Below, piece by piece: positions 564 to 10,829 of a stretch of 10,829 bases of DNA. The notes under the pieces were generated by a model, which searched no databases, was not told where the DNA came from, and was given only the letters and a program-made list of their open reading frames with translations. The DNA lies in the IMG/VR virus record IMGVR_UViG_3300045988_161343; one strand, given 5' to 3'. The position numbers were made by a program, and so were the translations under genes. The DNA is from a virus. Position 1 is the first letter of the stretch. Each line of letters begins with the position of its first letter.

Positions 564-597
564 AAAAATACTCCAAAAGAGAAAGGAAAATGATAAA

Positions 598-987: not shown

Positions 988-1016
988 ATATTTGAAAGAA
1001 AATTTAATCAAGGGGA

Positions 1017-1045
1017 TTGACAAAACAATCCTCTTGTGATATAAT
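1017..1045 (+). promoter_or_regulatory. Class-1 promoter: TTGACA (1017-1022), 17-nt spacer, TATAAT (1040-1045). The -35 box is embedded in the hairpin AAGGGGATTG/CAATCCTCTT
   Basis: The hexamers and a roughly 40-nt leader are nearly identical to the 535-597 cassette. An inverted repeat flanks the -35 box. Confidence 0.7.
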
Positions 1046-1078
1046 AAAGATACTCCAAAAGAGAAAGGAAATGATAAT

Positions 1079-1552
1079 ATGATTAAGGAATTGTGTTTCG
1101 ATCTTGATGGAACTCTGGTTGACCTCTATGGTGTTGAAGATTGGCTTGATAAAATTCGAGCCTATGACCCTACACCCTATCAAATTGCCGAACCGCTGGT
1201 TGATATGGCAGAACTTGCTTGTCTGCTCCGTAGCTTGCAGAATTGCGGTATCAATGTTGCAGTTATCACTTGGCTGTCAAAAAAGCCGAACAAGCAGTAT
1301 GATGATGAAATCAGAAAAGCAAAACGAGCTTGGCTGAAAGAATATGGTTTTCCATTTGACAGTCTGCGATGTGTAGCCTATGGAACGCCGAAGCATAAGG
1401 TTGAAGCCGCAAGACTTGCTGATGATGAAGAAGCCCTGATTTTTGATGATGATGCAAGAGTCCGCAGAGATTGGGACTTGGGCGGAGCAATCGACCCCAC
1501 AACCACAAATATTCTTGATGTGCTGAAAGAAATCTTGAATGGGCTTGAATAA
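1079..1552 (+). CDS. HAD-superfamily phosphatase, 5'(3')-deoxyribonucleotidase-like
   Basis: HAD motif I FDLDGTLVD lies near the N-terminus (DxDGT). A conserved Lys (KHK) and the motif IV acidic pair LIFDDDARV are present. The roughly 157-aa size fits the small NT5C-like nucleotidases found in phages. Confidence 0.7.
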   Translation: MIKELCFDLDGTLVDLYGVEDWLDKIRAYDPTPYQIAEPLVDMAELACLLRSLQNCGINVAVITWLSKKPNKQYDDEIRKAKRAWLKEYGFPFDSLRCVAYGTPKHKVEAARLADDEEALIFDDDARVRRDWDLGGAIDPTTTNILDVLKEILNGLE

Positions 1553-1576
1553 GCCCATTCAATAGGGGAAAATAAA

Positions 1577-1780
1577 ATGATGATTCCTAAAAATATTATT
1601 GTCAAGTATTCAGGTTTTGATGAAAGAGGATTGTATTATAATAATGCGTTAGAGTTTCGCACAGAACGAGACGCTGACCTTTTTATTCTGGACATGAAGA
1701 AATTGATGTTTGGATTGCAATCCTATACAAAAATTATCACTTGGGAGAAAAAGGTAGAGACAGAAAATGATTGTAGATAA
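1577..1780 (+). CDS. Hypothetical small protein (67 aa), paralog of the next gene
   Basis: GGGGA Shine-Dalgarno before ATG 1577. It shares the pattern KN..V.Y...F.TE..AD.FI.D with ORF 1767-1967. Confidence 0.5.
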   Translation: MMIPKNIIVKYSGFDERGLYYNNALEFRTERDADLFILDMKKLMFGLQSYTKIITWEKKVETENDCR

Positions 1781-1967
1781 AAATTATTCTGTATTATATC
1801 AATATGAAAATACATTTGGTGTAGCTTGTAGTGAAAGACGACAGTTTGATACCGAAGAAGAGGCTGACAAATTTATCCAAGATTTGTTAAATGATGGTAA
1901 TAAATGTGTTTGGAAAATTGTAAAAAATGTTTGGACAAATTATTATTCCGGAGCAGAAAAGAAGTGA
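1767..1967 (+). CDS. Hypothetical small protein (66 aa), tandem paralog of 1577-1780
   Basis: Its start overlaps the end of the previous ORF by 14 nt. The pair FDTEEEADKFIQDL / FRTERDADLFILDM shows the similarity. Confidence 0.5.
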   Translation: MIVDKNYSVLYQYENTFGVACSERRQFDTEEEADKFIQDLLNDGNKCVWKIVKNVWTNYYSGAEKK

Positions 1968-2061
1968 TAAAAATGAATGACGAACAGCTTGATATTTTGC
2001 TTGAAGAAGCGACAGACATTAAAATTTTAATTGCCTTGGGCTGAAAGGATTGGTAAAAATT

Positions 2062-2089
2062 GGGAATCCAGATTTTGGATTCCCTTTTT
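2062..2089 (+). terminator. Rho-independent terminator (GGGAATCCA-loop-TGGATTCCC followed by TTTTT)
   Basis: A 9-bp GC-containing stem is followed by a T-run, downstream of the 1577-1967 gene pair. Confidence 0.7.
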
Positions 2090-2090
2090 C

Positions 2091-2235
2091 ATTTGAGCCT
2101 GCCGCGATCCAACGCCGCGGCAGGCATTTTAGATTTTTAGCATTTTCACCAATTTTTTGCCCTAAAATTTGTGCATTCTGCCAGTAGACAAAAATCCTAA
2201 AACATGATATACTTTATAATGTCAAAGGGAAATAA
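2091..2235 (+). repeat. Class-2 intergenic element, copy 1. It has a GC stem-loop (2097-2125), a U-rich trail ATTTTAGATTTTTAGC, an operator-like inverted repeat, and promoter TAGACA (2185-2190), 17-nt spacer, TGa-TATACT (2208-2213)
   Basis: About 85% identical to 6505-6650 and partially to 3896-4020. The stem GCCTGCCGCG/CGCGGCAGGC differs from the other copies but still pairs. Confidence 0.75.
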
Positions 2236-2275
2236 TAATTAAATGTTTAGATAAAATAAGAAAGAGGTAAGCCTA

Positions 2276-3340
2276 ATGACTATTGAAAAGAATAAGAACT
2301 TGTTTATCATCACTCTTGGAGATGGCAGGAAAACCTACTTCAACTTCTCTGATGGCTGTATCTATGGTATGACCGGCAAGAAGGTCAAGGATTTTTGTCC
2401 AGAAGCAAAGAAGATTTTAAAGACATACGCCGATAATGATTTTCTTGCAAGATATTTTGCGGTAAGAAATAAAAATTATGACTATTATTTTAGTAATGTT
2501 AATAAATGGTCTACTGAAATGGTAGAAACTATTTATAGCATTTTCGGCAAAGATTATAATTGGCGTATTCTTGGCGTGATTGCTTATTTCTGTAATTTTA
2601 ATAATTATGCTCTTGATAAGCAGGGCGTCAAGTATTTGAAATTGGGCCTTGCTTCATTGGAAGAACATCAATTTGAAAACCTGTGCCGGAATGAAATTGA
2701 AGTTGCTGTTCGGGCAGTACGTTATTCAAATGTTAATCCGCAGATTTTAAGACTTATGAATAATGTGAAGCCCGCAGTACATGAAACTATCCTGAAAGAC
2801 GCAGATAAAATTTTGTTCCGAATGGAACATGAATGTTGGGAACTGCTTGACGGTTTTTATAGTATGAGTAGAACCGTCGAAAGATACATCACACTCTGCA
2901 ACGAATTGGGCAAAGAAAGAACATACAAAGATATGTTTTTGGCCATTTGTCAGATGGAAATGGAAAAACGTCTTGCTCTTGAAGCAGGAAGCAAAGATTA
3001 TCAGTTAAATGCAAATCTTGCATTTGAAGATAATAATTTTATTGTACTTGTGCCGACGGTAGCAAAAGAATTTGAAGCAGAGGCCGATTATCAGTCAAAC
3101 TGTGTTTATCGTGCCTATTATCCAAAGGTATTGAAGCATGAAACACACATTGTTTTTATTCGGCACAAGACTGAACCGGAAAAACCTTACATCACCTGCG
3201 AAGTAAATAATGATGGTGAAATCGTCCAGTATCTGACACGTTTTAATAATTGTGTTGATTGGAAGACTGATGAATTGGGCTTCCAGTTCCAAGCAATATA
3301 CGCTAATTATCTTTCTGAACATTTTAATAAAAACGCTTGA
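2276..3340 (+). CDS. Hypothetical protein (354 aa), largest gene in the window
   Basis: AGAGG Shine-Dalgarno before ATG 2276 and a clean 1065-nt ORF. I have no confident family assignment. The stop codon TGA (3338-3340) lies inside the TTGACA of the next promoter. Confidence 0.7.
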   Translation: MTIEKNKNLFIITLGDGRKTYFNFSDGCIYGMTGKKVKDFCPEAKKILKTYADNDFLARYFAVRNKNYDYYFSNVNKWSTEMVETIYSIFGKDYNWRILGVIAYFCNFNNYALDKQGVKYLKLGLASLEEHQFENLCRNEIEVAVRAVRYSNVNPQILRLMNNVKPAVHETILKDADKILFRMEHECWELLDGFYSMSRTVERYITLCNELGKERTYKDMFLAICQMEMEKRLALEAGSKDYQLNANLAFEDNNFIVLVPTVAKEFEAEADYQSNCVYRAYYPKVLKHETHIVFIRHKTEPEKPYITCEVNNDGEIVQYLTRFNNCVDWKTDELGFQFQAIYANYLSEHFNKNA

Positions 3341-3365
3341 CAAAATAGCCCTATTATGATATAAT
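3337..3365 (+). promoter_or_regulatory. Class-1 promoter: TTGACA (3337-3342), 17-nt spacer, TATAAT (3360-3365). The -10 box is embedded in a 13-bp-arm palindrome ATAGCCCTATTAT-gat-ATAATAGGGCTAT
   Basis: Consensus hexamers, a perfect palindrome across the -10 box, then the conserved leader ATCAAAAGAAAGGAATTGATAAAAATG. Confidence 0.7.
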
Positions 3366-3395
3366 AGGGCTATCAAAAGAAAGGAATTGATAAAA

Positions 3396-3845
3396 ATGAA
3401 AGCAACTGGCATTATTCGCAGAATTGATGACCTTGGACGTGTAATTATTCCGAAAGACATTCGCCGTAGTTTGAAGATTCATGAGGGTGACCCACTTGAA
3501 ATCTTTATTGAAAATAACTGTGTTTGTTTTCAAAAGTATTCAACACTTGGTTCACTCGCCGAAGAACCTTTGCAGATTGCTATTAAAATGGCGTCAAATT
3601 CTGGTTTGCGTCCTATTGCAATTTATGACACTGATAAAAAATTGCGTGGGATGGAAAATTTTCCGCCCTATGTCTCGAAGACATGGGAAGATGAAGACGA
3701 GCCATTTGAATACAATGCCACTTACGGCGTTTACCCGATTGACGCAGATGGTGACCGCGTGGGGTATGTGGTTTGCGATTCACAAGACATGGGCTGTGAA
3801 GTGATGATGATTGCTCGCTATCTTGGCAGTGTAATTGAGAATTAA
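3396..3845 (+). CDS. AbrB/MazE/SpoVT-fold transcriptional regulator with an extra C-terminal domain of about 100 aa
   Basis: The N-terminus MKATGIIRRIDDLGRVIIPKDIRRSLKIHEGDPLEIFIEN aligns almost residue-for-residue with the Bacillus AbrB N-domain MKSTGIVRKVDELGRVVIPIELRRTLGIAEKDALEIYVDD. The true start is ATG 3396, not the track's TTG 3387. Confidence 0.85.
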   Translation: MKATGIIRRIDDLGRVIIPKDIRRSLKIHEGDPLEIFIENNCVCFQKYSTLGSLAEEPLQIAIKMASNSGLRPIAIYDTDKKLRGMENFPPYVSKTWEDEDEPFEYNATYGVYPIDADGDRVGYVVCDSQDMGCEVMMIARYLGSVIEN

Positions 3846-3849
3846 AAAA

Positions 3850-3895
3850 AATAACACAAGGGACTTATTTTGTCAAGTCCCTTGTGTTATTTTTT
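3850..3895 (+). terminator. Strong terminator (17-bp stem AATAACACAAGGGACTT/AAGTCCCTTGTGTTATT, then TTTTTT). An A-run precedes it, so it is potentially bidirectional
   Basis: Perfect long stem followed by a T-tract, immediately after the AbrB-like gene. Confidence 0.8.
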
Positions 3896-4020
3896 GAGCC
3901 TCGCGGCCACGGTCCAGCCGCGAGGATTTTTAGATTTTTGGCACATTGCACAATTTTTTACTCCAAATTTTGTGCAAAATGACAGTTGACATTTTTCCCG
4001 ATACCTGTTATATTATTGGT
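3896..4020 (+). repeat. Class-2 intergenic element, copy 2. GC stem-loop CCTCGCGGC-CACGGTCCA-GCCGCGAGG (3899-3925), the trail ATTTTTAGATTTTTGGC, inverted repeat TGCACAAtttttt...aaattTTGTGCA (3947-3976), and promoter TTGACA (3986-3991), 17-nt spacer, TGt-TATATT (4009-4014)
   Basis: The upstream half is homologous to copies 1 and 3. The stem sequence differs but pairing is preserved, and the promoter half is diverged. Confidence 0.7.
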
Positions 4021-4045
4021 ACAAGGTTAAGGGAGGGAATACCTA

Positions 4046-4219
4046 ATGACTTCTGACGAAAAACTTAAATACTGCATTGAGCAATGGGTTGAGACATTTG
4101 ATGATTGTGCTTGTTGTCCTCTGATGTTCAAATGCCGAGATGATGAAGATATCCAAGGAATTGACTGCATTGAATGTGGTGAAAAAATTATTGATTGGTT
4201 AAAGGAGAATGAACAATGA
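4046..4219 (+). CDS. Small Cys-rich (zinc-ribbon-like) protein, 57 aa, missing from the ORF track (below its length cutoff)
   Basis: Strong Shine-Dalgarno GGGAGGG lies 8 nt before ATG 4046. The translation is MTSDEKLKYCIEQWVETFDDCACCPLMFKCRDDEDIQGIDCIECGEKIIDWLKENEQ, with 7 Cys including a CxxC pair. The stop TGA overlaps the next start in an ATGA junction at 4216-4219. Confidence 0.55.
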   Translation: MTSDEKLKYCIEQWVETFDDCACCPLMFKCRDDEDIQGIDCIECGEKIIDWLKENEQ

Positions 4220-4629
4220 AAAATCTGTACTGGAAACGCATTTACATGAAAATGAATGATGGTCAAGAGCCTATTCTGAATTGGAACCCACAACTTGTTT
4301 ATCGCCCCGAACCGCCTGAAAATGAAGTATTGACAATTAAAAACACAACAGACCTTGCAGTAGCTATTTGCAGTAACTATATCAATGGTTCTATCAAGCG
4401 TGGAACTTTTGACAGAAGAATCAAAAAATTCCATATCGAGAATATGAGATACTGGAAAGGTGAAGAATACAAGCCCGAAAAAATCAGTTTCCCTGTTTCA
4501 CGTGAAACAATTTATAAGCCAGTTGATTATGACATGAGTTTCAAGAAGTTGTCGGGAGAATTGTCCGCAGAAGATTTTATCCGTTGGATGAAAGACAATG
4601 GCATGAACACTTGCCCGATGATTAAATAA
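4216..4629 (+). CDS. Hypothetical protein (137 aa)
   Basis: Translationally coupled to the upstream small ORF through the ATGA overlap, and preceded by AAGGAGAA. I recognise no motif. Confidence 0.6.
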   Translation: MKNLYWKRIYMKMNDGQEPILNWNPQLVYRPEPPENEVLTIKNTTDLAVAICSNYINGSIKRGTFDRRIKKFHIENMRYWKGEEYKPEKISFPVSRETIYKPVDYDMSFKKLSGELSAEDFIRWMKDNGMNTCPMIK

Positions 4630-4637
4630 ATTAGGGG

Positions 4638-4666
4638 TTGACAAACAACCCCTAATGTGATACAAT
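4638..4666 (+). promoter_or_regulatory. Class-1 promoter: TTGACA (4638-4643), 17-nt spacer, TGtGa-TACAAT (4661-4666). The -35 box sits in the perfect 11-bp hairpin ATTAGGGGTTG-acaaa-CAACCCCTAAT
   Basis: Consensus hexamers, an inverted repeat around the -35 box, and the conserved leader ATCAAAGGAAAGGAATTGATAAAAAATG. Confidence 0.7.
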
Positions 4667-4697
4667 AGATTTATCAAAGGAAAGGAATTGATAAAAA

Positions 4698-5009
4698 ATG
4701 ATTATGGACGCCGCTATTGTTAAAGCAATGAATTTGCAGGACTTTCACAATTATATAAACAACAGGAAGCCCGAAGAATTACAGACCCTAATTGCATTAG
4801 CCAAGGAAAGAATTAACCAGTTAGACCAAGAGAAAGAAGCAAAGTATATGGCCGCAATCATTAAGTCTGTTCAGGATTATCTGGATAATGTTGGAGATTT
4901 GACATTCCATGTTGAGTACGAAGACGAAGATGGTCATGACGCAGAAACTGACATCATCGTAGACAATCTGAATCCGCCTGCTGGTGGCAATGGAGTTATT
5001 TACATTTAA
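4698..5009 (+). CDS. Hypothetical acidic protein (103 aa)
   Basis: ATG 4698 directly follows the conserved leader. No family recognised. Confidence 0.6.
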   Translation: MIMDAAIVKAMNLQDFHNYINNRKPEELQTLIALAKERINQLDQEKEAKYMAAIIKSVQDYLDNVGDLTFHVEYEDEDGHDAETDIIVDNLNPPAGGNGVIYI

Positions 5010-5021
5010 GGAGTGATACAA

Positions 5022-5339
5022 ATGCTTACAAATCCGGCTTTTTGGGCAGTTTTTGGAGTTGTTCTCTTTTTCATCTGTTTGATCTTGATGTTTATCCCTG
5101 ACACTTGGCGTGGCAGATTGGCAGTTTTTGGCCTATGTTGTGTGATTGCCTTTACTTTTGCAAGTCTAATGTATTTCACTGCTACCAATAGCCAAGAACG
5201 TTGGAATGATGGTAGACATGCAGAAGATAGTGGCCGCTATTGGTTAACAAGCGTAACTGATTACAAAGGAATCAAAACATATTATTACACTTGTGAAGAT
5301 TGCGGGCATACTGAACAATTTAGTCAGATAATGAGATAA
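5022..5339 (+). CDS. Small membrane protein (two predicted TM helices) with a C-terminal CxxC motif
   Basis: AAGGAG Shine-Dalgarno lies 8 nt before ATG 5022. The track's GTG at 5013 is less likely. Hydrophobic segments AFWAVFGVVLFFICLILMFI and LAVFGLCCVIAFTFASLMYF are followed by YTCEDCGH. Confidence 0.6.
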   Translation: MLTNPAFWAVFGVVLFFICLILMFIPDTWRGRLAVFGLCCVIAFTFASLMYFTATNSQERWNDGRHAEDSGRYWLTSVTDYKGIKTYYYTCEDCGHTEQFSQIMR

Positions 5340-5343
5340 TAAA

Positions 5344-5418
5344 CAAGCCGGTTGGGAAAAAAAATTATAAAAAAAAATTCCCAACCGGCTTGACAAATTA
5401 AAAAAAATTTGATATAAT
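5344..5418 (+). promoter_or_regulatory. Hairpin (13-bp stem CAAGCCGGTTGGG/CCCAACCGGCTTG, 23-nt A-rich loop) fused to a class-1 promoter: TTGACA (5390-5395), 17-nt spacer, TGa-TATAAT (5413-5418)
   Basis: The 3' arm of the stem ends in the TTG of the -35 box. The conserved leader CCAAAAGGAAAGGAATCAATAAACATG follows. Confidence 0.65.
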
Positions 5419-5449
5419 AATAGTACCAAAAGGAAAGGAATCAATAAAC

Positions 5450-5860
5450 ATGACTGAAATTACTACCTATGAGTGCGACTTCTGCGGGCAGGTGTTTGAT
5501 GATGAAGAAGAATGTATTCATCATGAATGGAAATGCAGATATGAAGATTTATGTAAATCTGAAAATTGCGAGCCGCTGAAACTGTTCAACCTTGAAGGCA
5601 AGGAAATCAATGGTTTCGACTATCCTAAATGTGATGAAATTGGGGCGGTGGAAATTCATTCTTACCTTCAAGCACAATTCATCAATGATTATTTTGATGA
5701 AATGGGTTATGAAGTTCCCATTAAAATTGTCATGGGGCTGATTGACCACTATGGTCTGTGGTATTATGATCCTGAATACCACTATGGCAAGTGGCGGTCT
5801 TATGAAGAAGTTCTTGAAGATATTCAGGAAATTGGCAAGAAATTTAATCAAGGGGCTTGA
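5450..5860 (+). CDS. Small protein with an N-terminal C2H2-like zinc finger (136 aa)
   Basis: YECDFCGQVFDDEEECIHHEWKC shows Cx2C...HH spacing. The stop TGA (5858-5860) lies inside the TTGACA of the next promoter. Confidence 0.6.
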   Translation: MTEITTYECDFCGQVFDDEEECIHHEWKCRYEDLCKSENCEPLKLFNLEGKEINGFDYPKCDEIGAVEIHSYLQAQFINDYFDEMGYEVPIKIVMGLIDHYGLWYYDPEYHYGKWRSYEEVLEDIQEIGKKFNQGA

Positions 5861-5885
5861 CAAGCCCCTTGACCTGTGATATAAT
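5857..5885 (+). promoter_or_regulatory. Class-1 promoter: TTGACA (5857-5862), 17-nt spacer, TGtGa-TATAAT (5880-5885). The -35 box sits within the palindrome CAAGGGGCTTG-a-CAAGCCCCTTG
   Basis: The upstream context AATTTAATCAAGGGG is the same as at 1003-1017. The leader ATCAAAAGGAAAGGAAAGGAAATGATACAATG follows. Confidence 0.7.
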
Positions 5886-5920
5886 TGATTTATCAAAAGG
5901 AAAGGAAAGGAAATGATACA

Positions 5921-6196
5921 ATGAATTATCAGGTTATTTTCATGGACAATGAAGGAACTGTTCAGGCGGGCATTTGGAATCAGGACAGGGATGAAATTAT
6001 CTGCGGCTGCTGTGGTGCAACAATCGAATCGGGCGATTTTGTCCTGCTTCACATCTATGATGAATGGTTGAACATCACCGATGAAATCTGTGGGGATGAT
6101 GGAGATATTCTTCATGAGATTGAAGAAAAGGTTGACCGCCTGACAACTTCTGAAATTGAAGCAATTCTTGATGGAGAGAAGGATTTTAACGAATGA
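5921..6196 (+). CDS. Small Cys-rich protein (91 aa)
   Basis: ATG 5921 follows the conserved leader. The track's TTG at 5885 lies inside the promoter. Motifs are ICGCCGATIESGD and ICGDDGD. Confidence 0.55.
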   Translation: MNYQVIFMDNEGTVQAGIWNQDRDEIICGCCGATIESGDFVLLHIYDEWLNITDEICGDDGDILHEIEEKVDRLTTSEIEAILDGEKDFNE

Positions 6197-6501
6197 GTTT
6201 TTTCTTGTCTGTTATGTATGCTTGGCTAGCTGATAATAACATCAGCTATGCCCTCTATGGAGCAGATGGCTCTAAACTTGACAGCCGTTATGCCAGCAGA
6301 CTTCCTGACCAATTTATTCCATCAGAAACAAATGGATATTCTTATCCATTTCCCTATTGGATTTGTTATCCAATAGTCATAGATGGTGAATACTGCGGTT
6401 GCTGGTGTTTCATAGATGATGACAACTGTTCGAGACATGACAATTTTGTTCGAGTAGTTGAAATGACAGAAATTGCCTGCGGCATGGAAGCAGACTCCTA
6501 A
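6193..6501 (+). CDS. Small Cys-rich protein (102 aa)
   Basis: Joined to the previous gene by an ATGA overlap at 6193-6196. Motifs are YCGCWCF...DNCSRH...IACG. Confidence 0.55.
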   Translation: MSFFLSVMYAWLADNNISYALYGADGSKLDSRYASRLPDQFIPSETNGYSYPFPYWICYPIVIDGEYCGCWCFIDDDNCSRHDNFVRVVEMTEIACGMEADS

Positions 6502-6504
6502 AAA

Positions 6505-6650
6505 AAATGGGCGGTTCATTTGAGCCGCCCGATGTCCTGCACACCGGGCGGCATTTTAATTTTTTAGCATTTTGCACAATTTTTTCATGCAAATTTTGTG
6601 CATCTTGCCAATAGACAAAAATCCTGAAATGTGATATACTCTATAATGTC
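6505..6650 (+). repeat. Class-2 intergenic element, copy 3. Stem-loops at 6509-6530 and 6524-6552 share the CCGCCC segment. It also has the trail ATTTTAATTTTTTAGC, inverted repeat TGCACAA (6572-6578) / TTGTGCA (6596-6602), and promoter TAGACA (6612-6617), 17-nt spacer, TGa-TATACT (6635-6640)
   Basis: About 85% identical to copy 1 across roughly 110 bp, with the same promoter and a different, compensating stem sequence. Confidence 0.75.
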
Positions 6651-6739
6651 AAGAGAGGATAGCGATTAAAAGTGCTTGGTATCATTAGCCGGGCTACACA
6701 ACTTCCTAGGTTCGTGTGTAAAAAAAATAAAATTCCCTC

Positions 6740-6768
6740 TTGACAAACAACACCTGATGTGTTATAAT
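6740..6768 (+). promoter_or_regulatory. Class-1 promoter: TTGACA (6740-6745), 17-nt spacer, TGt-TATAAT (6763-6768), then the leader CCAGAAAGGAATTGATAAATATG
   Basis: Consensus hexamers and the conserved RBS leader before gene A1. It lies about 120 bp downstream of the class-2 promoter, so the two are tandem promoters. Confidence 0.65.
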
Positions 6769-6819
6769 TGAGTCAACAAGTGAAGGAAACACTTAAAAAC
6801 CAGAAAGGAATTGATAAAT

Positions 6820-7206
6820 ATGGAAAAGGTTAAAGCCCCCACCCGCAAGGAAATGTTCACTACTGTTTCTGACTTCCTCGCCCAGCATGATGCAGACACT
6901 GACCTGATTGATTTTGTCAATCACCAGATTGAGCTTCTGGACAACAAGAAGGAAAACAAGAAGCAGGCCAAGGAGCAGGAAGAAAACGCCGCCTATTCTG
7001 ATGCAATCTATGAGCAGATGGCATTCGAGCGTAAGTACAGCGTCGCAGAGCTGATGAAGGAGCTTCCGATGGTCAATGATTGGAACACCAACCATGAGAC
7101 CGAACTGTCGGTTCAGAAGCTCGCAAGTCTGTTGAAGCCGCTGGTCGATGGTGGCAAGGTCATTAAGACCACCGAGAAACGCAGAGTGTTCTACACCAAG
7201 GCGTGA
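6820..7206 (+). CDS. Hypothetical protein A1 (128 aa), paralog of 9099-9476, with a possible winged-helix-like C-terminus
   Basis: ATG 6820 follows the conserved leader. The C-terminal 75 aa are conserved with A2 (YS[VI]AEL[MI]KELP...QK[LM]A.LLK.LV..G.VIKTTEKRRV[FY]YTKA). GC is about 48% and C-ending codons are preferred, unlike upstream genes. Confidence 0.7.
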   Translation: MEKVKAPTRKEMFTTVSDFLAQHDADTDLIDFVNHQIELLDNKKENKKQAKEQEENAAYSDAIYEQMAFERKYSVAELMKELPMVNDWNTNHETELSVQKLASLLKPLVDGGKVIKTTEKRRVFYTKA

Positions 7207-7213
7207 TAAACCA

Positions 7214-7237
7214 TGGGGCGGAGAAATCCGCCCCACT
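7214..7237 (+). other. Intercistronic hairpin GGGGCGGA-gaaa-TCCGCCCC between A1 and B1
   Basis: An 8-bp GC stem with a GNRA-like loop and no following U-tract. It may be an attenuator or RNA-stability element. Confidence 0.5.
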
Positions 7238-7252
7238 AATTAAGGAGAGCCT

Positions 7253-7651
7253 ATGAGAGAGTTGACTGAAAAGGAATGGGCAAAAGTCGATAATCTTGTT
7301 GACAAGCTGGAATGTTCGATTGATGAAGCAGTTGACATTCTGGACGCCGACAAAGCTATTGACCGTAATCAAAAGGTTGATTTTGATTTAAGTCCAGAAG
7401 AACATAAGCAAGCAATGAAACTTGCTAATGTCAAAGAGCATGCGGTCAAGAAAAGCAATGTCTACCGCCCGCGTAAGCCTAATGAAATTAAAGGTGCAAT
7501 TATTGCCAGTTTGTCAAAATATTTGACAGAAACGGCAGATTTTGAAGTGATTGATGAAGAAGTCACAAACAAAGAGCGGACAATTATGTTTACAAGTGGC
7601 GGCAACCGCTACGAATTGACCCTGATACAAAAGAGAGCATCAAAAACTTAA
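7253..7651 (+). CDS. Hypothetical protein B1 (132 aa), paralog of 9569-9931
   Basis: AAGGAGAG Shine-Dalgarno 6 nt before ATG 7253. Shared blocks with B2 are SI[DE]EA..[IV]L[DE].DK.IDR and [NI][RK]Y.LTL[IM]. Confidence 0.7.
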   Translation: MRELTEKEWAKVDNLVDKLECSIDEAVDILDADKAIDRNQKVDFDLSPEEHKQAMKLANVKEHAVKKSNVYRPRKPNEIKGAIIASLSKYLTETADFEVIDEEVTNKERTIMFTSGGNRYELTLIQKRASKT

Positions 7652-7653
7652 AG

Positions 7654-7689
7654 AAAATGCTGGAAAATGAAAATTTTTCCAGCATTTTT
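7654..7689 (+). terminator. Rho-independent terminator (14-bp stem AAAATGCTGGAAAA/TTTTCCAGCATTTT, then TTTTTG)
   Basis: Perfect stem plus T-run directly after the B1 stop. Confidence 0.8.
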
Positions 7690-7735
7690 GTATAATTTAA
7701 TGAATTTTTAAGGATTTTTTGTGTATTTTTATCTA

Positions 7736-7800
7736 TTGACATTTGGGCTGCCCGGCCACGACCTAGCCGGGCAGAATTTCCAATATTTACCAGTTTTACC
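7736..7800 (+). repeat. Class-2-like element, degenerate copy 4. GC stem-loop CTGCCCGGC-CACGACCTA-GCCGGGCAG (7748-7774), then the ACCAATTTTTT segment
   Basis: The stem covaries with the other copies. Its loop CACGACCTA resembles the copy-2 loop CACGGTCCA. The downstream ACCAATTTTTT matches copy 1. Confidence 0.5.
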
Positions 7801-7920
7801 AATTTTTTTACCAAAATCTAGCTTCATTTGATTAAAGTATTAAATCCTTAAAGTGCCGCACTTTACCACATTAAAGTGTTAAAGTGTGCATAAATATTCA
7901 TTGAAAATGAATAAATATTC
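7786..7920 (+). repeat. Iteron cluster. TTTACCA repeats at 7786, 7795, 7807 and 7862. TTAAAGTG repeats at 7832, 7848, 7871 and 7879, plus an inverted copy forming the palindrome TAAAGTG-ccg-CACTTTA (7849-7865). ATAAATATTC direct repeats flank the hairpin TATTCATT-gaa-AATGAATA (7891-7920)
   Basis: Read directly from the sequence: several short direct repeats at roughly helical spacing in an AT-rich stretch. This is a candidate replication origin or complex operator. Confidence 0.55.
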
Positions 7921-7923
7921 TTC

Positions 7924-7952
7924 TTGACATTTTGGGCAAGGTGTGATAATAT
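7924..7952 (+). promoter_or_regulatory. Promoter: TTGACA (7924-7929), 17-nt spacer, TAATAT (7947-7952) with upstream TGTG. A roughly 60-nt leader follows, with the AAAGGATGG Shine-Dalgarno site
   Basis: Consensus -35 box and an A/T-rich extended -10 box directly upstream of the exonuclease gene. Confidence 0.6.
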
Positions 7953-8014
7953 ATAAGAGCAATGAGGGAGCGATGGCAAACCCTGATTGACATTATTAAA
8001 AGGATGGAAACCCT

Positions 8015-8872
8015 ATGACTAAACTTGATAAGCGTCGAAAGTATTACCTGATTCTGGATTGTGAAACTGCGACACTTCCTTATGCCGCAAAGTTTTCCGC
8101 AGATATGAAGAAGAATGTCGCAATCGCCAAGCCGCTGATTTATGATTTGGGATGGCAGATTGTGGATATTCGTGGCAAGGTCTATAAGCGTGCGTCCTAC
8201 CTCATTTCTGAAATTTTCAGTGTTCCCGCAGTTTTCAATACTGCATATTATGCAAGTAAGCGTCCGATTTATCTTGAACGTTTGAAGAATAAGGAAATCA
8301 CGCTTGCAGATTGGAACACGGCTGTTGCAGAACTGATTGAAGATTTGGACGCTGTTGAAGCCGTCGGAGCATATAACAGTATGTTCGACTTCAAAAAGGC
8401 TATTCCATTCACTGAACTTTATGTTTCCAAGCTGTATTCGCCGGATTTCTTTGAATGGGAAGTATATCAGAATAAACGATGTGAAGCAATCGCCCACGGA
8501 AGTAAGCCCCATTCGCAGACAGAATTTGAACCTGATGTTTTCCGCTTCCATGGCAAGACGTATCCGCTATTTGACTTGTGGGGTTTGTCTTGTGAACATC
8601 TGTTGAATAATCCCGACTATAAGCAGATGTGCTATGATAATGAGTGGAGAACGGCAAGTGGTAAATACTATCCGACTAATGCGGAAAAGGCATTTGCCTA
8701 TTGTTTCCAGCAGGAAGATTTTGAAGAAGCCCATACTGCAATCGAGGACGCAATTATTGAGTCTATGCTGTTCGCCCTTATTGGAGAAAAGACCAAGCAC
8801 AAGTTTGAGATGGGTATTGAATATTTTCCCTACAAAAAGTTGGGAAGATTTGACAGTGATTGGGAGCTGTAA
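8015..8872 (+). CDS. DEDDh-family (DnaQ/RNase T/DexA-like) 3'-5' exonuclease
   Basis: Exo I YLILDCETATLP carries the D-x-E pair. Exo II GAYNSMFDFKKA matches the [HY]N..FD motif. Exo III EEAHTAIEDAIIE matches the H-x-A-x-x-D-A motif, and its His makes this the DEDDh subtype. A long insert of about 120 aa lies between motifs II and III. Confidence 0.8.
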   Translation: MTKLDKRRKYYLILDCETATLPYAAKFSADMKKNVAIAKPLIYDLGWQIVDIRGKVYKRASYLISEIFSVPAVFNTAYYASKRPIYLERLKNKEITLADWNTAVAELIEDLDAVEAVGAYNSMFDFKKAIPFTELYVSKLYSPDFFEWEVYQNKRCEAIAHGSKPHSQTEFEPDVFRFHGKTYPLFDLWGLSCEHLLNNPDYKQMCYDNEWRTASGKYYPTNAEKAFAYCFQQEDFEEAHTAIEDAIIESMLFALIGEKTKHKFEMGIEYFPYKKLGRFDSDWEL

Positions 8873-8998
8873 AAGCTCCCATCGCCCTTGTAAAATTATC
8901 ACAGCTACGGTATTGAAATTGCCGTTTTGACAATTATTTCCAGCGTTTCACGATAAAATCTCAGCCGAAAAAAAATCGTGGAAAATTCAATTAAGGTA

Positions 8999-9027
8999 TT
9001 GACAAATCGAAAGGTTTGTGATACAAT
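8999..9027 (+). promoter_or_regulatory. Class-1 promoter: TTGACA (8999-9004), 17-nt spacer, TGtGa-TACAAT (9022-9027). The leader contains the palindromes TGTTCC-aagagag-GGAACA and GGTCGCGACC, then GAAAGGAATTGATAATTATG
   Basis: Consensus hexamers and the conserved RBS leader before gene A2. Confidence 0.65.
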
Positions 9028-9098
9028 ATAATTGTTCCAAGAGAGGAACACAAAATAAATAAGGGTCGCGACCTACCGCTAGAAAGGAATTGATAATT

Positions 9099-9476
9099 AT
9101 GGAAAAGAAGATTACCTATGCCCAGGCCCTGAACACCGTCCTGAACAATGAGAACATCGTCCTTGCGTCTGATGTTCGTGAGAAGCTGGAAGCTCTGCTT
9201 GTCTCTGTTTCCAAGAAGTCCGGCGAAAAGAAGGATACTGCACAGCAGGTCGAGAACGCCATGATGGTGGAGCGGATTTATCAGGAGATGGAAGCCAACC
9301 GGACTTACTCCATTGCCGAACTGATTAAGGAACTACCGGTTGTGGCTGATTTCAATGCCAACCATGAGAACGATATGTCCACGCAGAAAATGGCGAACCT
9401 GCTCAAGACCCTTGTGGAAGATGGCAGAGTGATTAAGACCACTGAAAAGCGGCGTGTCTACTACACCAAGGCATAA
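9099..9476 (+). CDS. Hypothetical protein A2 (126 aa), paralog of 6820-7206
   Basis: ATG 9099 follows the conserved leader. The track's start 9090 is a TTG inside the leader. The C-terminus ...LLKTLVEDGRVIKTTEKRRVYYTKA is nearly identical to A1. GC is high relative to the window. Confidence 0.7.
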   Translation: MEKKITYAQALNTVLNNENIVLASDVREKLEALLVSVSKKSGEKKDTAQQVENAMMVERIYQEMEANRTYSIAELIKELPVVADFNANHENDMSTQKMANLLKTLVEDGRVIKTTEKRRVYYTKA

Positions 9477-9484
9477 GCGAAAAA

Positions 9485-9514
9485 GAAGTAAGGGGAGCTT
9501 TCTCCCCTTACTTC
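9485..9514 (+). other. Intercistronic hairpin GAAGTAAGGGGAG-cttt-CTCCCCTTACTTC between A2 and B2, followed by the palindromic CAGCTAGTTCTAGCTAGCTCCCAGC segment
   Basis: A perfect 13-bp stem with no clean U-tract. It is positionally equivalent to the A1/B1 hairpin but has a different sequence. Confidence 0.5.
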
Positions 9515-9568
9515 TCCCAGCTAGTTCTAGCTAGCTCCCAGCAAACAAAATTCTAATAGGACGGTAAA

Positions 9569-9931
9569 ATGTCAATGACCGTTGAAAAGTTGGCAAATTC
9601 GCTTAAAATCTCTATTGAAGAAGCCAAACAAGTTTTGGAAATGGACAAGCGAATTGATAGGGGCGAAAAGCTGTTTGAGCTGCCGCCGGAGCTTGAAGCA
9701 GGGGCAAAAAAGGCAAGACGTGCTGATCGGAAGAAAGTGGAAAATGTAAAACGGGAACGCAAGCCTGATGAAGATAAAAGGGAGTTAATCCAGTATTTGG
9801 AAAGTTCCTTAGAAGATGCCTACCCCGATTTGGATTTGGGCAATATTACCATTACAAATCCAGAACGAGAAATGGAATTTACTTACAATGGAATTAAATA
9901 CCGGTTGACCCTGATGCGTCCAAGGAAATAG
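9569..9931 (+). CDS. Hypothetical protein B2 (120 aa), paralog of 7253-7651
   Basis: AGGACGG Shine-Dalgarno before ATG 9569. ATG 9575 is an alternative start. Conserved blocks are shared with B1. A basic central region (KKARRADRKKVENVKRERKPDEDKR) suggests nucleic-acid binding. Confidence 0.65.
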   Translation: MSMTVEKLANSLKISIEEAKQVLEMDKRIDRGEKLFELPPELEAGAKKARRADRKKVENVKRERKPDEDKRELIQYLESSLEDAYPDLDLGNITITNPEREMEFTYNGIKYRLTLMRPRK

Positions 9932-9962
9932 ATGGAAGATGGAAACATCTTCCATCCTTTTT
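9931..9962 (+). terminator. Rho-independent terminator (GATGGAAGATG-gaaa-CATCTTCCATC, then CTTTTTGG)
   Basis: An 11-bp perfect stem plus T-run overlapping the B2 stop codon. Confidence 0.8.
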
Positions 9963-10110
9963 GGAATCATAATTGGAAAATATTGGAACAGATGGTAATT
10001 TCAGCCGGTCGTCACTGGAAGTGATGACCGGAATTCTAGAAAAAACCCTCATATGGCAATTTTTTGTTCAATCTAGCAGCCTCTCATATGGCGCATGTTT
10101 TTCCCGAAAC

Positions 10111-10139
10111 TTGCAATTTTTAAAAAAATATTTTATAAT
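10111..10139 (+). promoter_or_regulatory. Promoter: TTGCAA (10111-10116), 17-nt spacer, TATAAT (10134-10139)
   Basis: Near-consensus hexamers about 50 nt upstream of the Shine-Dalgarno site of gene 10192. The upstream region carries direct repeats CTCATATGGC (10067 and 10082) and GCAATTTTT (10052 and 10113). Confidence 0.55.
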
Positions 10140-10191
10140 ATATATACAGAATAAAGAGTTCTGGAAATCTTTATAAAGAGGTAATATACAT

Positions 10192-10587
10192 ATGTATGAT
10201 TTTTATGATCGTCTGATGAAGGGTGAATCCGCAGAGGATATTGCCAAGAGCATCACTGATGAACTGAACAAGGCACAGGCCAAGAGAACAGAAGAGTTGA
10301 AGGCTCGGGCTGAAGCATCCAAGAGAGACCAGACAATGGCCGCGGATGCAGAGGCTATCTGCACTGGCCTGATGAAGTTTGCTAAGGATTATTATGGCTA
10401 TGACATTGAGGTCAAGACCGAAGACCTGATGAAGGTTTTTGATATGGCTGATAAGATTGGTCGTGCCATTGAGGACCTTGGTAAGACGGTTGAGAAGCCT
10501 GCTGAGAAAGTAAAGGCTAAGGTATACAAGGTCAATGGCTCTGCTGATGAAGTCATTGATAAGTTCCTTAACCTGATGGGGTGGTAA
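10192..10587 (+). CDS. Hypothetical protein (131 aa), predicted mostly alpha-helical and Lys/Glu-rich
   Basis: AAAGAGGTAA Shine-Dalgarno before ATG 10192. GC is relatively high, like the A/B modules. A terminator follows directly. Confidence 0.65.
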   Translation: MYDFYDRLMKGESAEDIAKSITDELNKAQAKRTEELKARAEASKRDQTMAADAEAICTGLMKFAKDYYGYDIEVKTEDLMKVFDMADKIGRAIEDLGKTVEKPAEKVKAKVYKVNGSADEVIDKFLNLMGW

Positions 10588-10619
10588 GAAAAGGGCATAT
10601 GCCCTTTTCTTATTTTTTT
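10588..10619 (+). terminator. Rho-independent terminator (GAAAAGGGCAT/ATGCCCTTTTC, then TTATTTTTTTA)
   Basis: A palindromic stem centred on CATATG, followed by a T-run. Confidence 0.8.
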
Positions 10620-10643
10620 ATTTTAGCTGGAAAATTTTGGAAA

Positions 10644-10680
10644 GTCAAATTTGACTTTTATAAAAAAATATGATATAATA
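10644..10680 (+). promoter_or_regulatory. Promoter: TTGACT (10651-10656, inside the palindrome GTCAAAtTTGAC), spacer, TGa-TATAAT (10675-10680)
   Basis: A consensus-like -35 box with an extended -10 box, followed by the Shine-Dalgarno site AGGGTGGTGA and ATG 10721. Confidence 0.55.
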
Positions 10681-10720: not shown

Positions 10721-10829
10721 ATGTCGGTTGATATGGAGAATAGGGGTACCACTGATACAATAGGGGCACAGCACTACTCCACTTTAATACAATTTTTATC
10801 AATTTTACTCCACTTTAATACAATTTTTA
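10721..10829 (+). CDS. Possible 5' end of a gene running off the window. Its hydrophobic tail overlaps the tandem repeat
   Basis: Good Shine-Dalgarno site (GGGTGGTGA, 8 nt) and an open frame to the window end (MSVDMENRGTTDTIGAQHYSTLIQFLSILLHFNTIF...). The embedded 31-bp-period repeat is not a multiple of 3, which argues against coding. Confidence 0.3.
   Translation, partial: MSVDMENRGTTDTIGAQHYSTLIQFLSILLHFNTIF
10775..10829 (+). repeat. Tandem direct repeat TACTCCACTTTAATACAATTTTTA (two copies, period 31 bp), truncated by the window end
   Basis: An exact 24-nt repeat at 10775-10798 and 10806-10829. An AATAGGGG dyad lies at 10739 and 10759. Confidence 0.6.

What the first reader, a model, noticed from the sequence alone, without database searches (positions are those of the whole stretch)
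6820..9931. A two-gene module of unknown function is present as two diverged copies (A1/B1 at 6820-7651, A2/B2 at 9099-9931), with atypical composition and an intercistronic hairpin in each
Proteins A1 and A2 share a highly conserved C-terminal 75 aa that ends ...VIKTTEKRRV[FY]YTKA. Proteins B1 and B2 share SI[DE]EA..[IV]L..DK.IDR and a C-terminal ...Y.LTL... block. Gene order, the spacing and the A-B intergenic hairpin are conserved in position (7214-7237, 9485-9514), but the hairpin sequences differ. GC content rises to roughly 45-50% in these modules, with C-ending codons preferred, against about 33-36% upstream. That pattern fits genes acquired from elsewhere, or highly expressed genes using host-optimal codons. 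Duplicated and diversified paired small proteins in a phage accessory region are typical of regulators or immunity proteins of altered specificity, of anti-defence loci, and of partner-switching pairs. The A C-terminus looks like a winged helix (a helix, then a Gly, then a beta-hairpin 'VIKTTEKRRVFY'). The DEDDh exonuclease gene sits between the two copies.
Basis: partly seen in the sequence, partly recalled or inferred. Interest (0 to 1): 0.7.

Follow-up and report, generated by a model that had tools for sequence, protein, structure and literature searches.

The report
Conserved early phage winged-helix gene pair
Two diverged copies of a small two-gene cassette turn out to be a conserved hallmark of a large group of uncultured ~190-kb gut and rumen phages, and its first gene encodes a small winged-helix protein that looks built for very high early expression, but what the pair does is still unknown.

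Summary
A1/A2 (60% identity over 82 aa, E 1e-34) and B1/B2 (38% over 118 aa, E 1e-19) are true paralogues. Each A gene is followed by a strong GC-rich hairpin, and a DEDDh-type exonuclease gene lies between the modules.

The cassette is not an accessory oddity. A followed by B occurs in about 100 fetched loci from uncultured phage contigs, mostly 100-200 kb, usually with 2-3 A copies. 113 of 115 B genes have an A gene directly upstream.

Only A is compositionally atypical (GC3 0.66). The bias is an optimal-codon pattern conserved across the clade, so it reflects expression level and not foreign origin.

A has an N-terminal helical part and a C-terminal winged helix. B is a novel two-domain protein with no known relative.

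In 59% of A-B spacers the hairpin is followed by a perfect sigma-70 promoter for B. The window's spacers have none, so B must be made by read-through.

B falls into two ancient types. A copies resemble each other within a genome more than across genomes, so the "altered-specificity pairs" reading is not supported.

Best reading: A is an abundant early DNA-binding regulatory or architectural protein and B a less abundant partner. The function is inferred, not shown.

The parts
6515..6673 (+). One copy of a repeated intergenic cassette: a GC hairpin, a T-rich tail, the palindrome TTGCACAA..TTGTGCA, and a weaker promoter (TAGACA-17-TATACT). It lies just upstream of the A1 promoter and may supply a second, differently regulated transcript into A1.
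   Evidence: the GTGCA..TGCC..TTGACA block is conserved across the clade
6740..6768 (+). Promoter of A1: TTGACA-17-TATAAT, a 12/12 match, with an extended -10 TG
6820..7206 (+). A1, 128 aa. It has an N-terminal helical part, a K/E-rich linker and a C-terminal winged helix. GC3 is 0.67.
7214..7235 (+). GC-rich hairpin 8 nt after the A1 stop codon (9 bp stem, GAAA loop). No U-tract follows it. It is read as a leaky terminator or 3' stabiliser of the A1 transcript.
   Evidence: the identical hairpin sequence follows an A gene in L029
7253..7651 (+). B1, 132 aa, of B type 2. It has a three-helix N-terminal domain, a basic linker and a C-terminal domain of one helix plus three strands.
7653..7689 (+). 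Intrinsic terminator of the A1-B1 unit: a stem flanked by an A-run and a T-run
7716..7816 (+). Degenerate copy of the repeated intergenic cassette. It includes a GC hairpin at 7748-7774 (CTGCCCGGC-CACGACCTA-GCCGGGCAG).
7924..7952 (+). Promoter of the exonuclease gene (TTGACA-17-TAATAT, with TG)
8015..8872 (+). DEDDh (DnaQ-like) 3'-5' exonuclease homologue, 285 aa. It lies in the conserved neighbourhood of the A/B genes: 55 of 64 loci of at least 8 kb carry it.
8999..9027 (+). Promoter of A2 (TTGACA-17-TACAAT, with TG)
9099..9476 (+). A2, 125 aa, paralogue of A1. GC3 is 0.65.
9484..9536 (+). Two hairpins after the A2 stop codon: a 14 bp stem at 9484-9515 and a 7 bp stem at 9519-9536. There is no U-tract and no promoter before B2.
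9569..9931 (+). B2, 120 aa, of B type 1, an ancient paralogue of B1
9931..9956 (+). Intrinsic terminator of the A2-B2 unit (hairpin followed by CTTTTT)

Best explanation
The two modules are the local copies of a conserved early-gene cassette found in a large clade of uncultured phages from gut and rumen metagenomes. These phages have genomes of about 160-200 kb and Firmicutes-type expression signals.

A is a ~125-aa protein with an N-terminal helical part and a C-terminal winged helix. Several features point to very high early synthesis:
- a consensus host sigma-70 promoter with an extended -10;
- a strong Shine-Dalgarno sequence;
- optimal codons;
- a GC-rich 3' hairpin;
- 2-3 gene copies per genome.

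I infer that A is an abundant DNA-binding regulatory or architectural protein of the takeover or early-to-middle phase.

B is a novel two-domain protein that almost never occurs without an A gene directly upstream. It is made in smaller amounts. In this window that would be by read-through of the U-tract-less hairpin. In most relatives it comes from B's own promoter placed after the hairpin. I infer that B acts together with A, and that the two ancient B types provide two different partner or adaptor functions.

Shown: the paralogy, clade-wide synteny, purifying selection, the codon pattern, the winged-helix similarity, and the hairpin/promoter anatomy.

Inferred: high protein abundance, DNA binding, an A-B functional interaction, and a role in transcription or DNA organisation.
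For: Paralogy.

Early-gene setting: the window has ten perfect or near-perfect TG-extended sigma-70 promoters, all on the + strand, and terminator-like sites well above the shuffle expectation.

Family size and distribution:
- The A profile finds 1451 representatives of 50%-identity clusters, almost all 115-140 aa and matched over their full length.
- It was recovered at 61 IMG/VR loci on contigs mostly 100-200 kb, and at 31 MAG contigs.

Synteny:
- 111 of 155 distinct A genes are followed by B.
- 113 of 115 non-edge B genes have A directly upstream.
- Most loci carry 2-3 A genes.

Composition:
- An A gene has the highest GC3 of all ORFs in 41 of 55 loci. The mean z-score is +2.07 for A and +0.30 for B.
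- The codon table shows avoidance of ATA, CTA, TTA, CAA, AGT, CCA, GGG, AGG and CGA. It shows a preference for both T- and C-ending codons in four-fold boxes, with no rise in NNG there. That is translational selection, not a GC-richer donor genome.

Hairpin and spacer anatomy:
- 127 of 145 distinct A genes have a hairpin, with median dG -20 kcal/mol, starting a median 7 nt after the stop codon. Only 12% have at least 4 T in the next 8 nt.
- 59% of 103 distinct A-B spacers hold a TTGACA-17-TATAAT promoter, but almost none of the spacers shorter than 70 nt do.

Winged helix.

Purifying selection: dN/dS is 0.12-0.20.

B structure: the AlphaFold2 model has mean pLDDT 80, with the C-terminal domain above 90.
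Against: There is no direct evidence for DNA binding, protein abundance or an A-B contact.

A and B are near-neutral in charge (A1: 20 K+R against 23 D+E), unlike classical DNA-coating proteins.

The AlphaFold2 model of A was poor (pLDDT 48), so the winged-helix assignment rests on weak profile matches (E 0.004-0.1).

Winged-helix domains can also mediate protein-protein contacts.

The conserved proximity of a DEDDh exonuclease and nucleotide-metabolism genes would fit a DNA-metabolism role equally well.
Confidence: 0.45

Rival explanations
1. Replication or recombination accessory module. A would bind phage DNA or a replication or recombination protein through a winged helix of the Hop2/Mnd1, MCM-C or STN1 kind. 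B would be a co-factor. Both would work with the neighbouring DEDDh exonuclease and the nucleotide-metabolism genes.
For: - An exonuclease homologue lies within the flanks in 55 of 64 loci of at least 8 kb, and a HAD/NT5C-like gene in 40 of 64.
- 14 solo A genes are followed directly by the exonuclease gene.
- The best PDB and Pfam hits of the A winged helix are Hop2/Mnd1 and the MCM C-terminal winged helix.
Against: - Winged-helix subfamily hits at E 1e-5 to 1e-2 do not indicate function. MarR, TrmB, BlaI and Csa3 hit equally well.
- The position of the exonuclease relative to the modules varies between lineages.
- Extreme codon optimisation and several gene copies are unusual for replication accessory factors.
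Confidence: 0.2
2. A is an abundant protein-binding titrator and not a DNA binder. Its winged helix would sequester a host factor such as RNA polymerase, a sigma factor, a nucleoid protein or a defence protein. High dosage would be needed for stoichiometric inhibition, and B would modulate or target it.
For: - Dosage features: multiple copies, optimal codons and strong promoters.
- Near-neutral charge.
- A evolves faster between genomes than B: A is 52% identical where B is 60-80% identical. That would suit an arms-race interface.
- A2 resembles the C-terminal helical-plus-winged-helix module of the defence protein SoFic (E 5.8e-6) and Csa3.
Against: - The SoFic and Csa3 hits are sporadic: 2 and 8 of 68 family members. 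They are explained by a generic winged helix.
- dN/dS of 0.14-0.17 shows no positive selection at the whole-gene level.
- The putative recognition helix and wing are the most conserved part of the family, as expected for DNA binding.
Confidence: 0.15
3. One reading: duplicated and diversified regulator/immunity, anti-defence or partner-switching pairs, in which each A is matched to its own B with altered specificity.
For: - There are two pairs per genome. B1 and B2 belong to two ancient, clearly separate types.
- In this window's lineage the A N-termini have diverged (21% identity) while the C-termini remain 61% identical.
Against: - A does not track B type. Within-genome A paralogues are 68% identical. 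A genes paired with the same B type in other genomes are 43-52% identical, and cross-type pairs are 47% identical.
- The cassette is core and syntenic across the clade rather than variable.
- 39 A genes are solo.
- There are no specific hits in PADLOC.
Confidence: 0.12
4. The modules are recently acquired foreign DNA, which would explain their higher GC content.
For: GC content is 0.49 in A1 and A2, against about 0.35-0.40 around them.
Against: - Only A is atypical. B, in the same unit, is not.
- The codon shift is selective: pyrimidine-ending codons rise in four-fold boxes and NNG does not.
- The same bias is present in A homologues across the whole clade.
- Synonymous sites between the paralogues are saturated (pS 0.67-0.79), so the duplication is old.
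Confidence: 0.03

Closest known systems
Bacillus phage phi29 p6 / p4 (abundant early histone-like DNA-binding protein plus a small transcriptional regulator); from my own knowledge, not tested here
   Same: Both are small early proteins of a Firmicutes phage, transcribed by host RNA polymerase from strong promoters. One is made in very large amounts, and the two cooperate on DNA to switch transcription. This is the functional analogy I consider most likely.
   Different: No sequence or fold relationship was found. p6 is not a winged helix. phi29 has one copy of each gene, not 2-3 A copies and two B types.
T4 MotA / AsiA (sigma appropriation at middle promoters)
   Same: - It is an early phage pair that reprograms host RNA polymerase.
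- MotA has a helical N-terminal domain, a linker and an alpha/beta DNA-binding C-terminal domain, as the B model does.
- Foldseek lists a MotA as its second viral hit (E 0.039, probability 0.54).
- The window holds a second promoter class with a conserved upstream block.
   Different: Profile-profile comparison gives no relationship. B against MotA has probability 0.2%. A against the MotA N-terminal domain has probability 3.2%. The TM-score is only 0.25. Neither A nor B matched a MotA chain in the PDB profile searches.
MarR / TrmB / BlaI-MecI / Csa3-type winged-helix DNA-binding domains
   Same: The C-terminal ~60 aa of A align to these families through helix 1, the recognition helix and the wing (..SxQKVSxL..L...G.V.KT.EKRK.YF). 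A generic protein made of repeated winged-helix-turn-helix domains, P0432, is hit by the A profile at 8e-11.
   Different: No member of the A family reaches a Pfam gathering score for these families. The domain order, helical part first and winged helix last, is the reverse of BlaI/MecI. There is no ligand-binding or CARF domain.
phrog_19455 (PHROG family of unknown function)
   Same: 18 of 68 A-family members match it, the best at 1.8e-9. It is the only catalogued phage protein family that corresponds to A.
   Different: It has no annotation. A1 and A2 themselves match it only at E 0.0045 and 0.017.

Membership tests
Winged-helix DNA-binding superfamily (A, C-terminal ~60 aa) | Sequence-profile similarity to established winged-helix families | tested here: met
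   The match is weak but consistent. PDB profile search: Hop2 winged helix 2mh2 at E 0.0044, BlaI/MecI at 0.09-0.11, Lrs14 at 0.15. Pfam on family members: Mnd1 in 7 of 68, DUF7343 in 6 of 68, plus MarR_2, MCM_C and TrmB, the best at 1.5e-5. The A profile also hits the repeated winged-helix-turn-helix protein P0432.
Winged-helix DNA-binding superfamily (A, C-terminal ~60 aa) | Three-helix core plus a beta-hairpin wing in three dimensions | tested here: inconclusive
   The AlphaFold2 model of A1, built from a shallow alignment, has pLDDT 48 and no confident wing.
Winged-helix DNA-binding superfamily (A, C-terminal ~60 aa) | Binds DNA | not testable with these tools
   This needs EMSA, ChIP or a similar experiment.
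T4 MotA-type middle-transcription activator (B, or A) | Homology to the MotA N-terminal or C-terminal domain | tested here: not met
   hhalign of the B alignment against a MotA alignment (T4, Moon, PS2) gives probability 0.2%. A against the MotA N-terminal domain gives probability 3.2%, E 0.014. The Foldseek hit has TM-score 0.25 and probability 0.54.
DEDDh (DnaQ-like) 3'-5' exonuclease (gene 8015-8872) | The three Exo motifs with invariant D, E, D, H and D residues | tested here: met
   D15, E17, N121/D125, H240 and D245 are invariant in 20 homologues that are 23-87% identical to the window protein. The profile hits the PolC exonuclease domain 2p1j at E 0.0045 and RNase T at 0.2-0.4. No Pfam or NCBIfam hit was obtained for the single sequence.
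Canonical intrinsic (Rho-independent) terminator (the A-B hairpins) | A GC-rich stem-loop immediately followed by a U-tract | tested here: not met
   The stems are strong, but the tails are ACTAATTA and TCCCAGCT in the window. Only 12% of 127 A-gene hairpins have at least 4 T in the next 8 nt, against 34% for hairpins after B genes. The hairpin could still act as a leaky terminator or a 3' stabiliser.
Known anti-phage defence or toxin-antitoxin components | A match to a PADLOC or NCBIfam model of a defence or TA protein | tested here: not met
   A1, B1, B2 and the exonuclease have no PADLOC hit. A2 hits the SoFic C-terminal module (5.8e-6) and Csa3, but only 2 and 8 of 68 family members do, which reflects a generic winged helix. 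NCBIfam hits are all far below their cut-offs.
Horizontally acquired island | Uniform compositional shift and patchy distribution | tested here: not met
   The shift is confined to A and follows an optimal-codon pattern. A with B is syntenic across the clade.

The most novel reading that the evidence does not exclude
A would be a new kind of phage-encoded, dosage-amplified chromatin-like or takeover protein. Two to three gene copies, kept alike within each genome, would flood the cell early with a small winged-helix protein that organises or marks DNA or captures the host transcription machinery. The two ancient B types would act as adaptors that direct it to different targets. One such target could be the conserved GTGCA..TGCC..TTGACA promoter class found throughout these genomes. 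This would be a two-component transcription-takeover system unrelated to MotA/AsiA or p4/p6.
Probability: 0.2. Interest if true: 0.7.

Novelty: new variant of a known kind. Interest (0 to 1): 0.45.

Why it matters
The cassette marks a very widespread and diverse clade of large uncultured gut and rumen phages. The A family alone has 1451 clusters at 50% identity and hundreds of variants more than 90% identical to the window copies in human-associated metagenomes. No cultured representative exists in the phage or plasmid collections searched.

A is probably among the most highly expressed early proteins of these phages. Even so, automatic gene callers missed or truncated it in the three 193-195-kb contigs examined, plausibly because of its codon usage.

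Identifying what A and B do would open the early takeover programme of this clade. The conserved promoters, hairpins and the second promoter class give concrete handles for experiments and for synthetic expression in Clostridia-like hosts.

Within-genome similarity of the A copies, combined with ancient divergence of the B types, is an unusual evolutionary pattern and deserves an explanation.

Tried and rejected
- Pfam, PHROGs, NCBIfam and PADLOC scans of A1, A2, B1 and B2 gave nothing above threshold.
- DNA and protein searches of INPHARED phages with the window and with A1 found nothing. A typical family member found only the unverified faecal scaffold MT835855.1. B found nothing. A typical A-family member (P0323) found nothing in the plasmid collection.
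- The AlphaFold2 model of A, from an alignment of homologues more than 90% identical plus the paralogue, failed (pLDDT 48). This used the last structure job, so the deeper alignment A3 could not be modelled.
- The weak eL38 match of the B C-terminal domain (E 0.04) is recorded only as a hint that it binds nucleic acid.
- The MotA lead was tested by profile-profile comparison and rejected.
- Recent gene conversion was tested as the explanation for the within-genome similarity of A. Synonymous differences are near saturation (pS 0.53-0.77). Only a few long identical runs occur: 89 nt in L057, 38 nt in L044 and 32 nt in L012. Conversion is therefore at most episodic.
- The long antisense ORF over A1 (6793-7236, minus strand) is absent over A2. 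It is a by-product of the GC3-rich codons.
- Rfam and tRNA scans of the window were negative.
- A literature search found nothing on this family.
- The first search for related loci attempt, with the 68-sequence alignment, failed for lack of a conserved stretch. A 10-sequence alignment worked.

Full report
**1. What is in the window**

The plus strand of 6740-9956 holds three transcription units.

- Unit 1: a perfect sigma-70 promoter with an extended -10 (6740-6768), A1 (6820-7206, 128 aa), a GC-rich hairpin (7214-7235), B1 (7253-7651, 132 aa) and a terminator (7653-7689).
- Unit 2: a promoter at 7924-7952 and a 285-aa gene (8015-8872).
- Unit 3: a promoter (8999-9027), A2 (9099-9476, 125 aa), two hairpins (9484-9515 and 9519-9536), B2 (9569-9931, 120 aa) and a terminator (9931-9956).

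The whole window looks like an early-gene region. It has ten perfect or near-perfect TG-extended promoters, all on the plus strand. The scan found 61 promoter-like sites against 32.5 ± 5.4 in shuffles, and 22 terminator-like sites against 7.9 ± 2.8. The leaders share the sequence AAAGGAATTGATAAnnATG.

**2. Check of the observation**

- A1 and A2 share 60% identity over their C-terminal 82 aa (E 1e-34). Their N-terminal ~45 aa do not align.
- B1 and B2 share 38% identity over 118 aa (E 1e-19).
- Both hairpin regions fold far better than shuffled sequence, with z-scores of -4.2 and -4.1.
- The intervening gene has the DEDDh signature. D15, E17, D125, H240 and D245 are invariant in 20 homologues, and the profile hits the PolC exonuclease domain at E 0.0045.

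One correction is needed. The compositional anomaly belongs to A only. GC3 is 0.67 for A1 and 0.65 for A2, 0.37 for B1 and 0.43 for B2, and 0.18-0.44 for the other genes, with ORF 10192-10587 at 0.52.

**3. Distribution**

- None of A1, A2, B1 or B2 reaches the threshold of any Pfam, PHROG, NCBIfam or PADLOC family.
- The big protein database holds 243 clusters at 90% identity for A1, 496 for A2 and 50 for B1. All come from metagenomes, on contigs up to 195 kb. The only source name given is 'hypothetical protein, Caudoviricetes'.
- A profile of A finds 1451 representatives of 50%-identity clusters at E ≤ 1e-3, and 146 at E ≤ 1e-10. Almost all are 115-140 aa and matched over their full length.
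- The cultured-phage and plasmid collections contain nothing except one unverified human faecal scaffold.
- Pattern scans recovered 61 IMG/VR loci, on contigs mostly 100-200 kb. They also recovered 31 MAG contigs whose bins carry mutually inconsistent taxonomy, Clostridia being the most frequent. I read these as phage contigs that were binned with bacteria.

**4. Synteny**

I scanned all six-frame ORFs of about 100 loci with HMMs of A and B.

- Of 155 distinct A genes, 111 are followed on the same strand by B, with a median spacer of 91 nt. Forty are solo and 4 lie at a contig edge.
- Of 115 non-edge B genes, 113 have A directly upstream.
- Most 10-kb loci carry two or three A genes.
- An exonuclease homologue lies in 55 of 64 loci of at least 8 kb. 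Fourteen solo A genes are followed directly by it (example).
- The 193-195-kb contigs L001-L003 have the same layout as the window: A1-B1, one extra gene, the exonuclease, then A2-B2. In those contigs the gene caller missed A1 entirely, called only the last 70 codons of A2 in two of the three and none of it in the third, and missed B2.
- Against L001, all genes show purifying selection, with dN/dS of 0.12-0.20.

The cassette is therefore a conserved core feature of a phage clade and not an accessory island.

**5. Composition**

- An A gene has the highest GC3 of all ORFs in 41 of 55 distinct loci. The mean z-score is +2.07 for A and +0.30 for B.
- Pooled codon usage over 14,770 A codons shows near-absence of ATA, CTA, TTA, CAA, AGT, CCA, GGG, AGG and CGA.
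- It shows a strong preference for TTC, GAC, AAC, ATC, AAG and CAG.
- In four-fold boxes both T- and C-ending codons are preferred (TCT/TCC, GGT/GGC, CGT/CGC, GCT), and NNG codons do not rise.

That is the signature of translational selection. It persists in A homologues about 30% identical to A1.

**6. The hairpin**

- 127 of 145 distinct A genes carry a strong hairpin, with median dG -20 kcal/mol, starting a median 7 nt after the stop codon.
- Only 12% are followed by at least 4 T in the next 8 nt, against 34% for the hairpins after B.
- Of 103 distinct A-B spacers, 59% contain a TTGACA-17-TATAAT promoter between the hairpin and B. The share is 97% for spacers of 95-130 nt and 3% for spacers under 70 nt (examples L004 and L006).

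In most relatives, then, A and B are separate transcription units. In this window neither spacer (46 and 92 nt) holds a promoter, so B1 and B2 must be made by read-through. Either arrangement would give much more A than B. The stoichiometry is my inference.

**7. What the proteins are**

Protein A:
- The family consensus is ..KKxTKxxxF..L...FIxHEIELLxKK...KPTAxQxEN...I...ME...YT..E..K..P...SxQKVSxL...L...G.V.KT.EKRK.YF.
- The last ~60 residues match winged-helix domains. These include the Hop2 winged helix at E 0.0044 and BlaI/MecI at about 0.1. Family members also hit Pfam Mnd1, DUF7343, MarR_2, MCM_C and TrmB, and Csa3 and the SoFic C-terminus in PADLOC.
- The A profile also hits a generic repeated winged-helix-turn-helix protein.
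- The AlphaFold2 model of A was poor (pLDDT 48) because the alignment was shallow.

Protein B:
- The model reaches mean pLDDT 80. It has three N-terminal helices, a basic low-confidence linker, and a C-terminal domain of one helix plus three strands with pLDDT above 90.
- There is a weak eL38 match at E 0.04.
- A weak Foldseek hit to MotA (E 0.039) was tested against real MotA sequences and rejected. hhalign gives probability 0.2% for B and 3.2% for A.

**8. Evolution of the pairs**

- B splits into two ancient types of 63 and 45 genes. B1 is type 2 and B2 is type 1.
- 32 loci carry both types, and in 30 of them type 1 comes first. The window's lineage has the reverse order.
- Within a genome the two B types are 36% identical.
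- The A copies within a genome are 68% identical on average, and up to 88%. A genes paired with the same B type in other genomes are only 43-52% identical, no better than cross-type pairs at 47%.
- Synonymous differences between within-genome A copies are near saturation (pS 0.53-0.77), with occasional long identical runs of up to 89 nt.

The similarity therefore reflects old or episodic homogenisation, or selection to keep the copies alike. It does not reflect recent duplication. A does not co-diversify with B type, which argues against matched pairs of altered specificity.

The window's lineage is unusual in that the A N-termini have diverged (21% identity) while the C-termini remain 61% identical.

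**9. Interpretation**

The anatomy points to A as a very abundant early protein. The evidence is a consensus promoter, a strong ribosome-binding site, optimal codons, a 3' hairpin and multiple gene copies. The only recognisable domain in A is a winged helix.

My best reading, at confidence 0.45, is that A is an abundant DNA-binding regulatory or architectural protein of the takeover phase. B would be a less abundant partner that comes in two forms.

The rival readings are:
- a replication or recombination accessory role linked to the neighbouring exonuclease (0.2);
- a protein-titrating role for A (0.15);
- foreign acquisition (0.03).

None of the functional steps is shown. AlphaFold-multimer, transcript mapping and DNA-binding assays would decide among them.

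**10. Noticed in passing**

The window holds four copies of a 150-170-nt intergenic cassette, at 2088-2246, 3893-4030, 6515-6673 and 7716-7900. Each consists of a GC hairpin whose stem differs between copies, a T-rich tail, the palindrome TTGCACAA..TTGTGCA and a weaker promoter.

Its core block, TTTTGTGCAWWTTGCCTATTGACA, is conserved across the clade, with 79 hits in 852 kb. It defines a second promoter class. One copy sits in tandem upstream of the A1 promoter.

In some relatives a perfect promoter carrying this block is followed at once by a GC hairpin and a T-rich tail. That could be a tiny hairpin RNA or an origin-like element.

Overall the block is not specific to A genes. Of 57 distinct blocks, 10 precede an A gene and 13 follow a B gene.

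Noticed in passing
window 2088-2246, 3893-4030, 6515-6673, 7716-7900: A 150-170-nt intergenic cassette is present four times in the window. It reads CATTTGAGCC, then a GC-rich hairpin whose stem sequence differs between copies (compensatory changes), then a T-rich tail, then the palindrome TTGCACAATTTTTT..AAATTTTGTGCA, then TGCC-TAGACA-17-TATACT. It looks like a terminator, an operator-like palindrome and a second, weaker promoter class. One copy sits in tandem upstream of the A1 promoter.
   Followed up: partly
L001 11041, L006 3530, L012 2506, L026 3620, L043 5823 and 8266, L054 2097, and about 70 further sites in the loci: The block TTTTGTGCA(W)(W)TTG(C/A)C(T/A)ATTGACA is conserved across the clade directly 5' of a -35 hexamer. 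In many cases a perfect promoter carrying it is followed immediately by a 9-10 bp GC hairpin (loop often CACG..) and an AATTT/T-rich tail. That would make a promoter feeding straight into a terminator-like hairpin, possibly a tiny hairpin RNA or an origin-like element. In L054 two such blocks flank one hairpin in inverted orientation.
   Followed up: partly
window 535-10679, + strand: There are ten perfect or near-perfect TTGACA-17-TATAAT promoters with TG-extended -10 in 10.8 kb. Most are followed by the shared leader ..CAAAAGGAAAGGAATTGATAAAnATG. In several, the -35 hexamer is embedded in the terminator hairpin of the preceding gene (4630-4656, 5846-5874, 5344-5392).
   Followed up: partly
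L001 9528-9953 and 12524-13356 (also L002, L003): The public gene calls on the 193-195-kb contigs omit A1 and B2. They call only the last 70 codons of A2 in L001 and L002, and none of A2 in L003. The likely reason is the atypical codon usage of A. The family is probably under-represented in protein catalogues.
   Followed up: no
window 10192-10587: A 131-aa ORF has the next-highest GC3 in the window (0.52). Homologues lie downstream of the A/B genes in distant relatives (L004 8842-9195, L006 9236-9688) and in 19 of 64 loci of at least 8 kb. It has no family match. It may be another highly expressed member of the conserved neighbourhood.
   Followed up: partly
window 6793-7236, - strand: A 147-aa antisense ORF spans the whole of A1, and a 155-aa one does the same in L001. 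No equivalent exists over A2, so it is most likely a by-product of the GC3-rich codons and not a gene.
   Followed up: partly
window 10775-10798 and 10806-10829: An exact 24-nt direct repeat (TACTCCACTTTAATACAATTTTTA), with copies 31 nt apart start to start, lies at the right end of the window.
   Followed up: no
window 32-244, 1079-1552, 3396-3845: The upstream neighbours include a nucleoside 2-deoxyribosyltransferase fragment, a HAD/NT5C-like nucleotidase and an AbrB/SpoVT-like protein. The first two annotations rest on Pfam hits in related loci. The third rests on the motif GRVIIPKDIRR, read by eye.
   Followed up: no
IMGVR_UViG_3300032167_000002 (L013 and L021): One 402-kb viral contig carries A-B regions at two distant places (37 kb and 244 kb). 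These match two different 170-190-kb relatives. It may be a chimeric or concatenated assembly.
   Followed up: no
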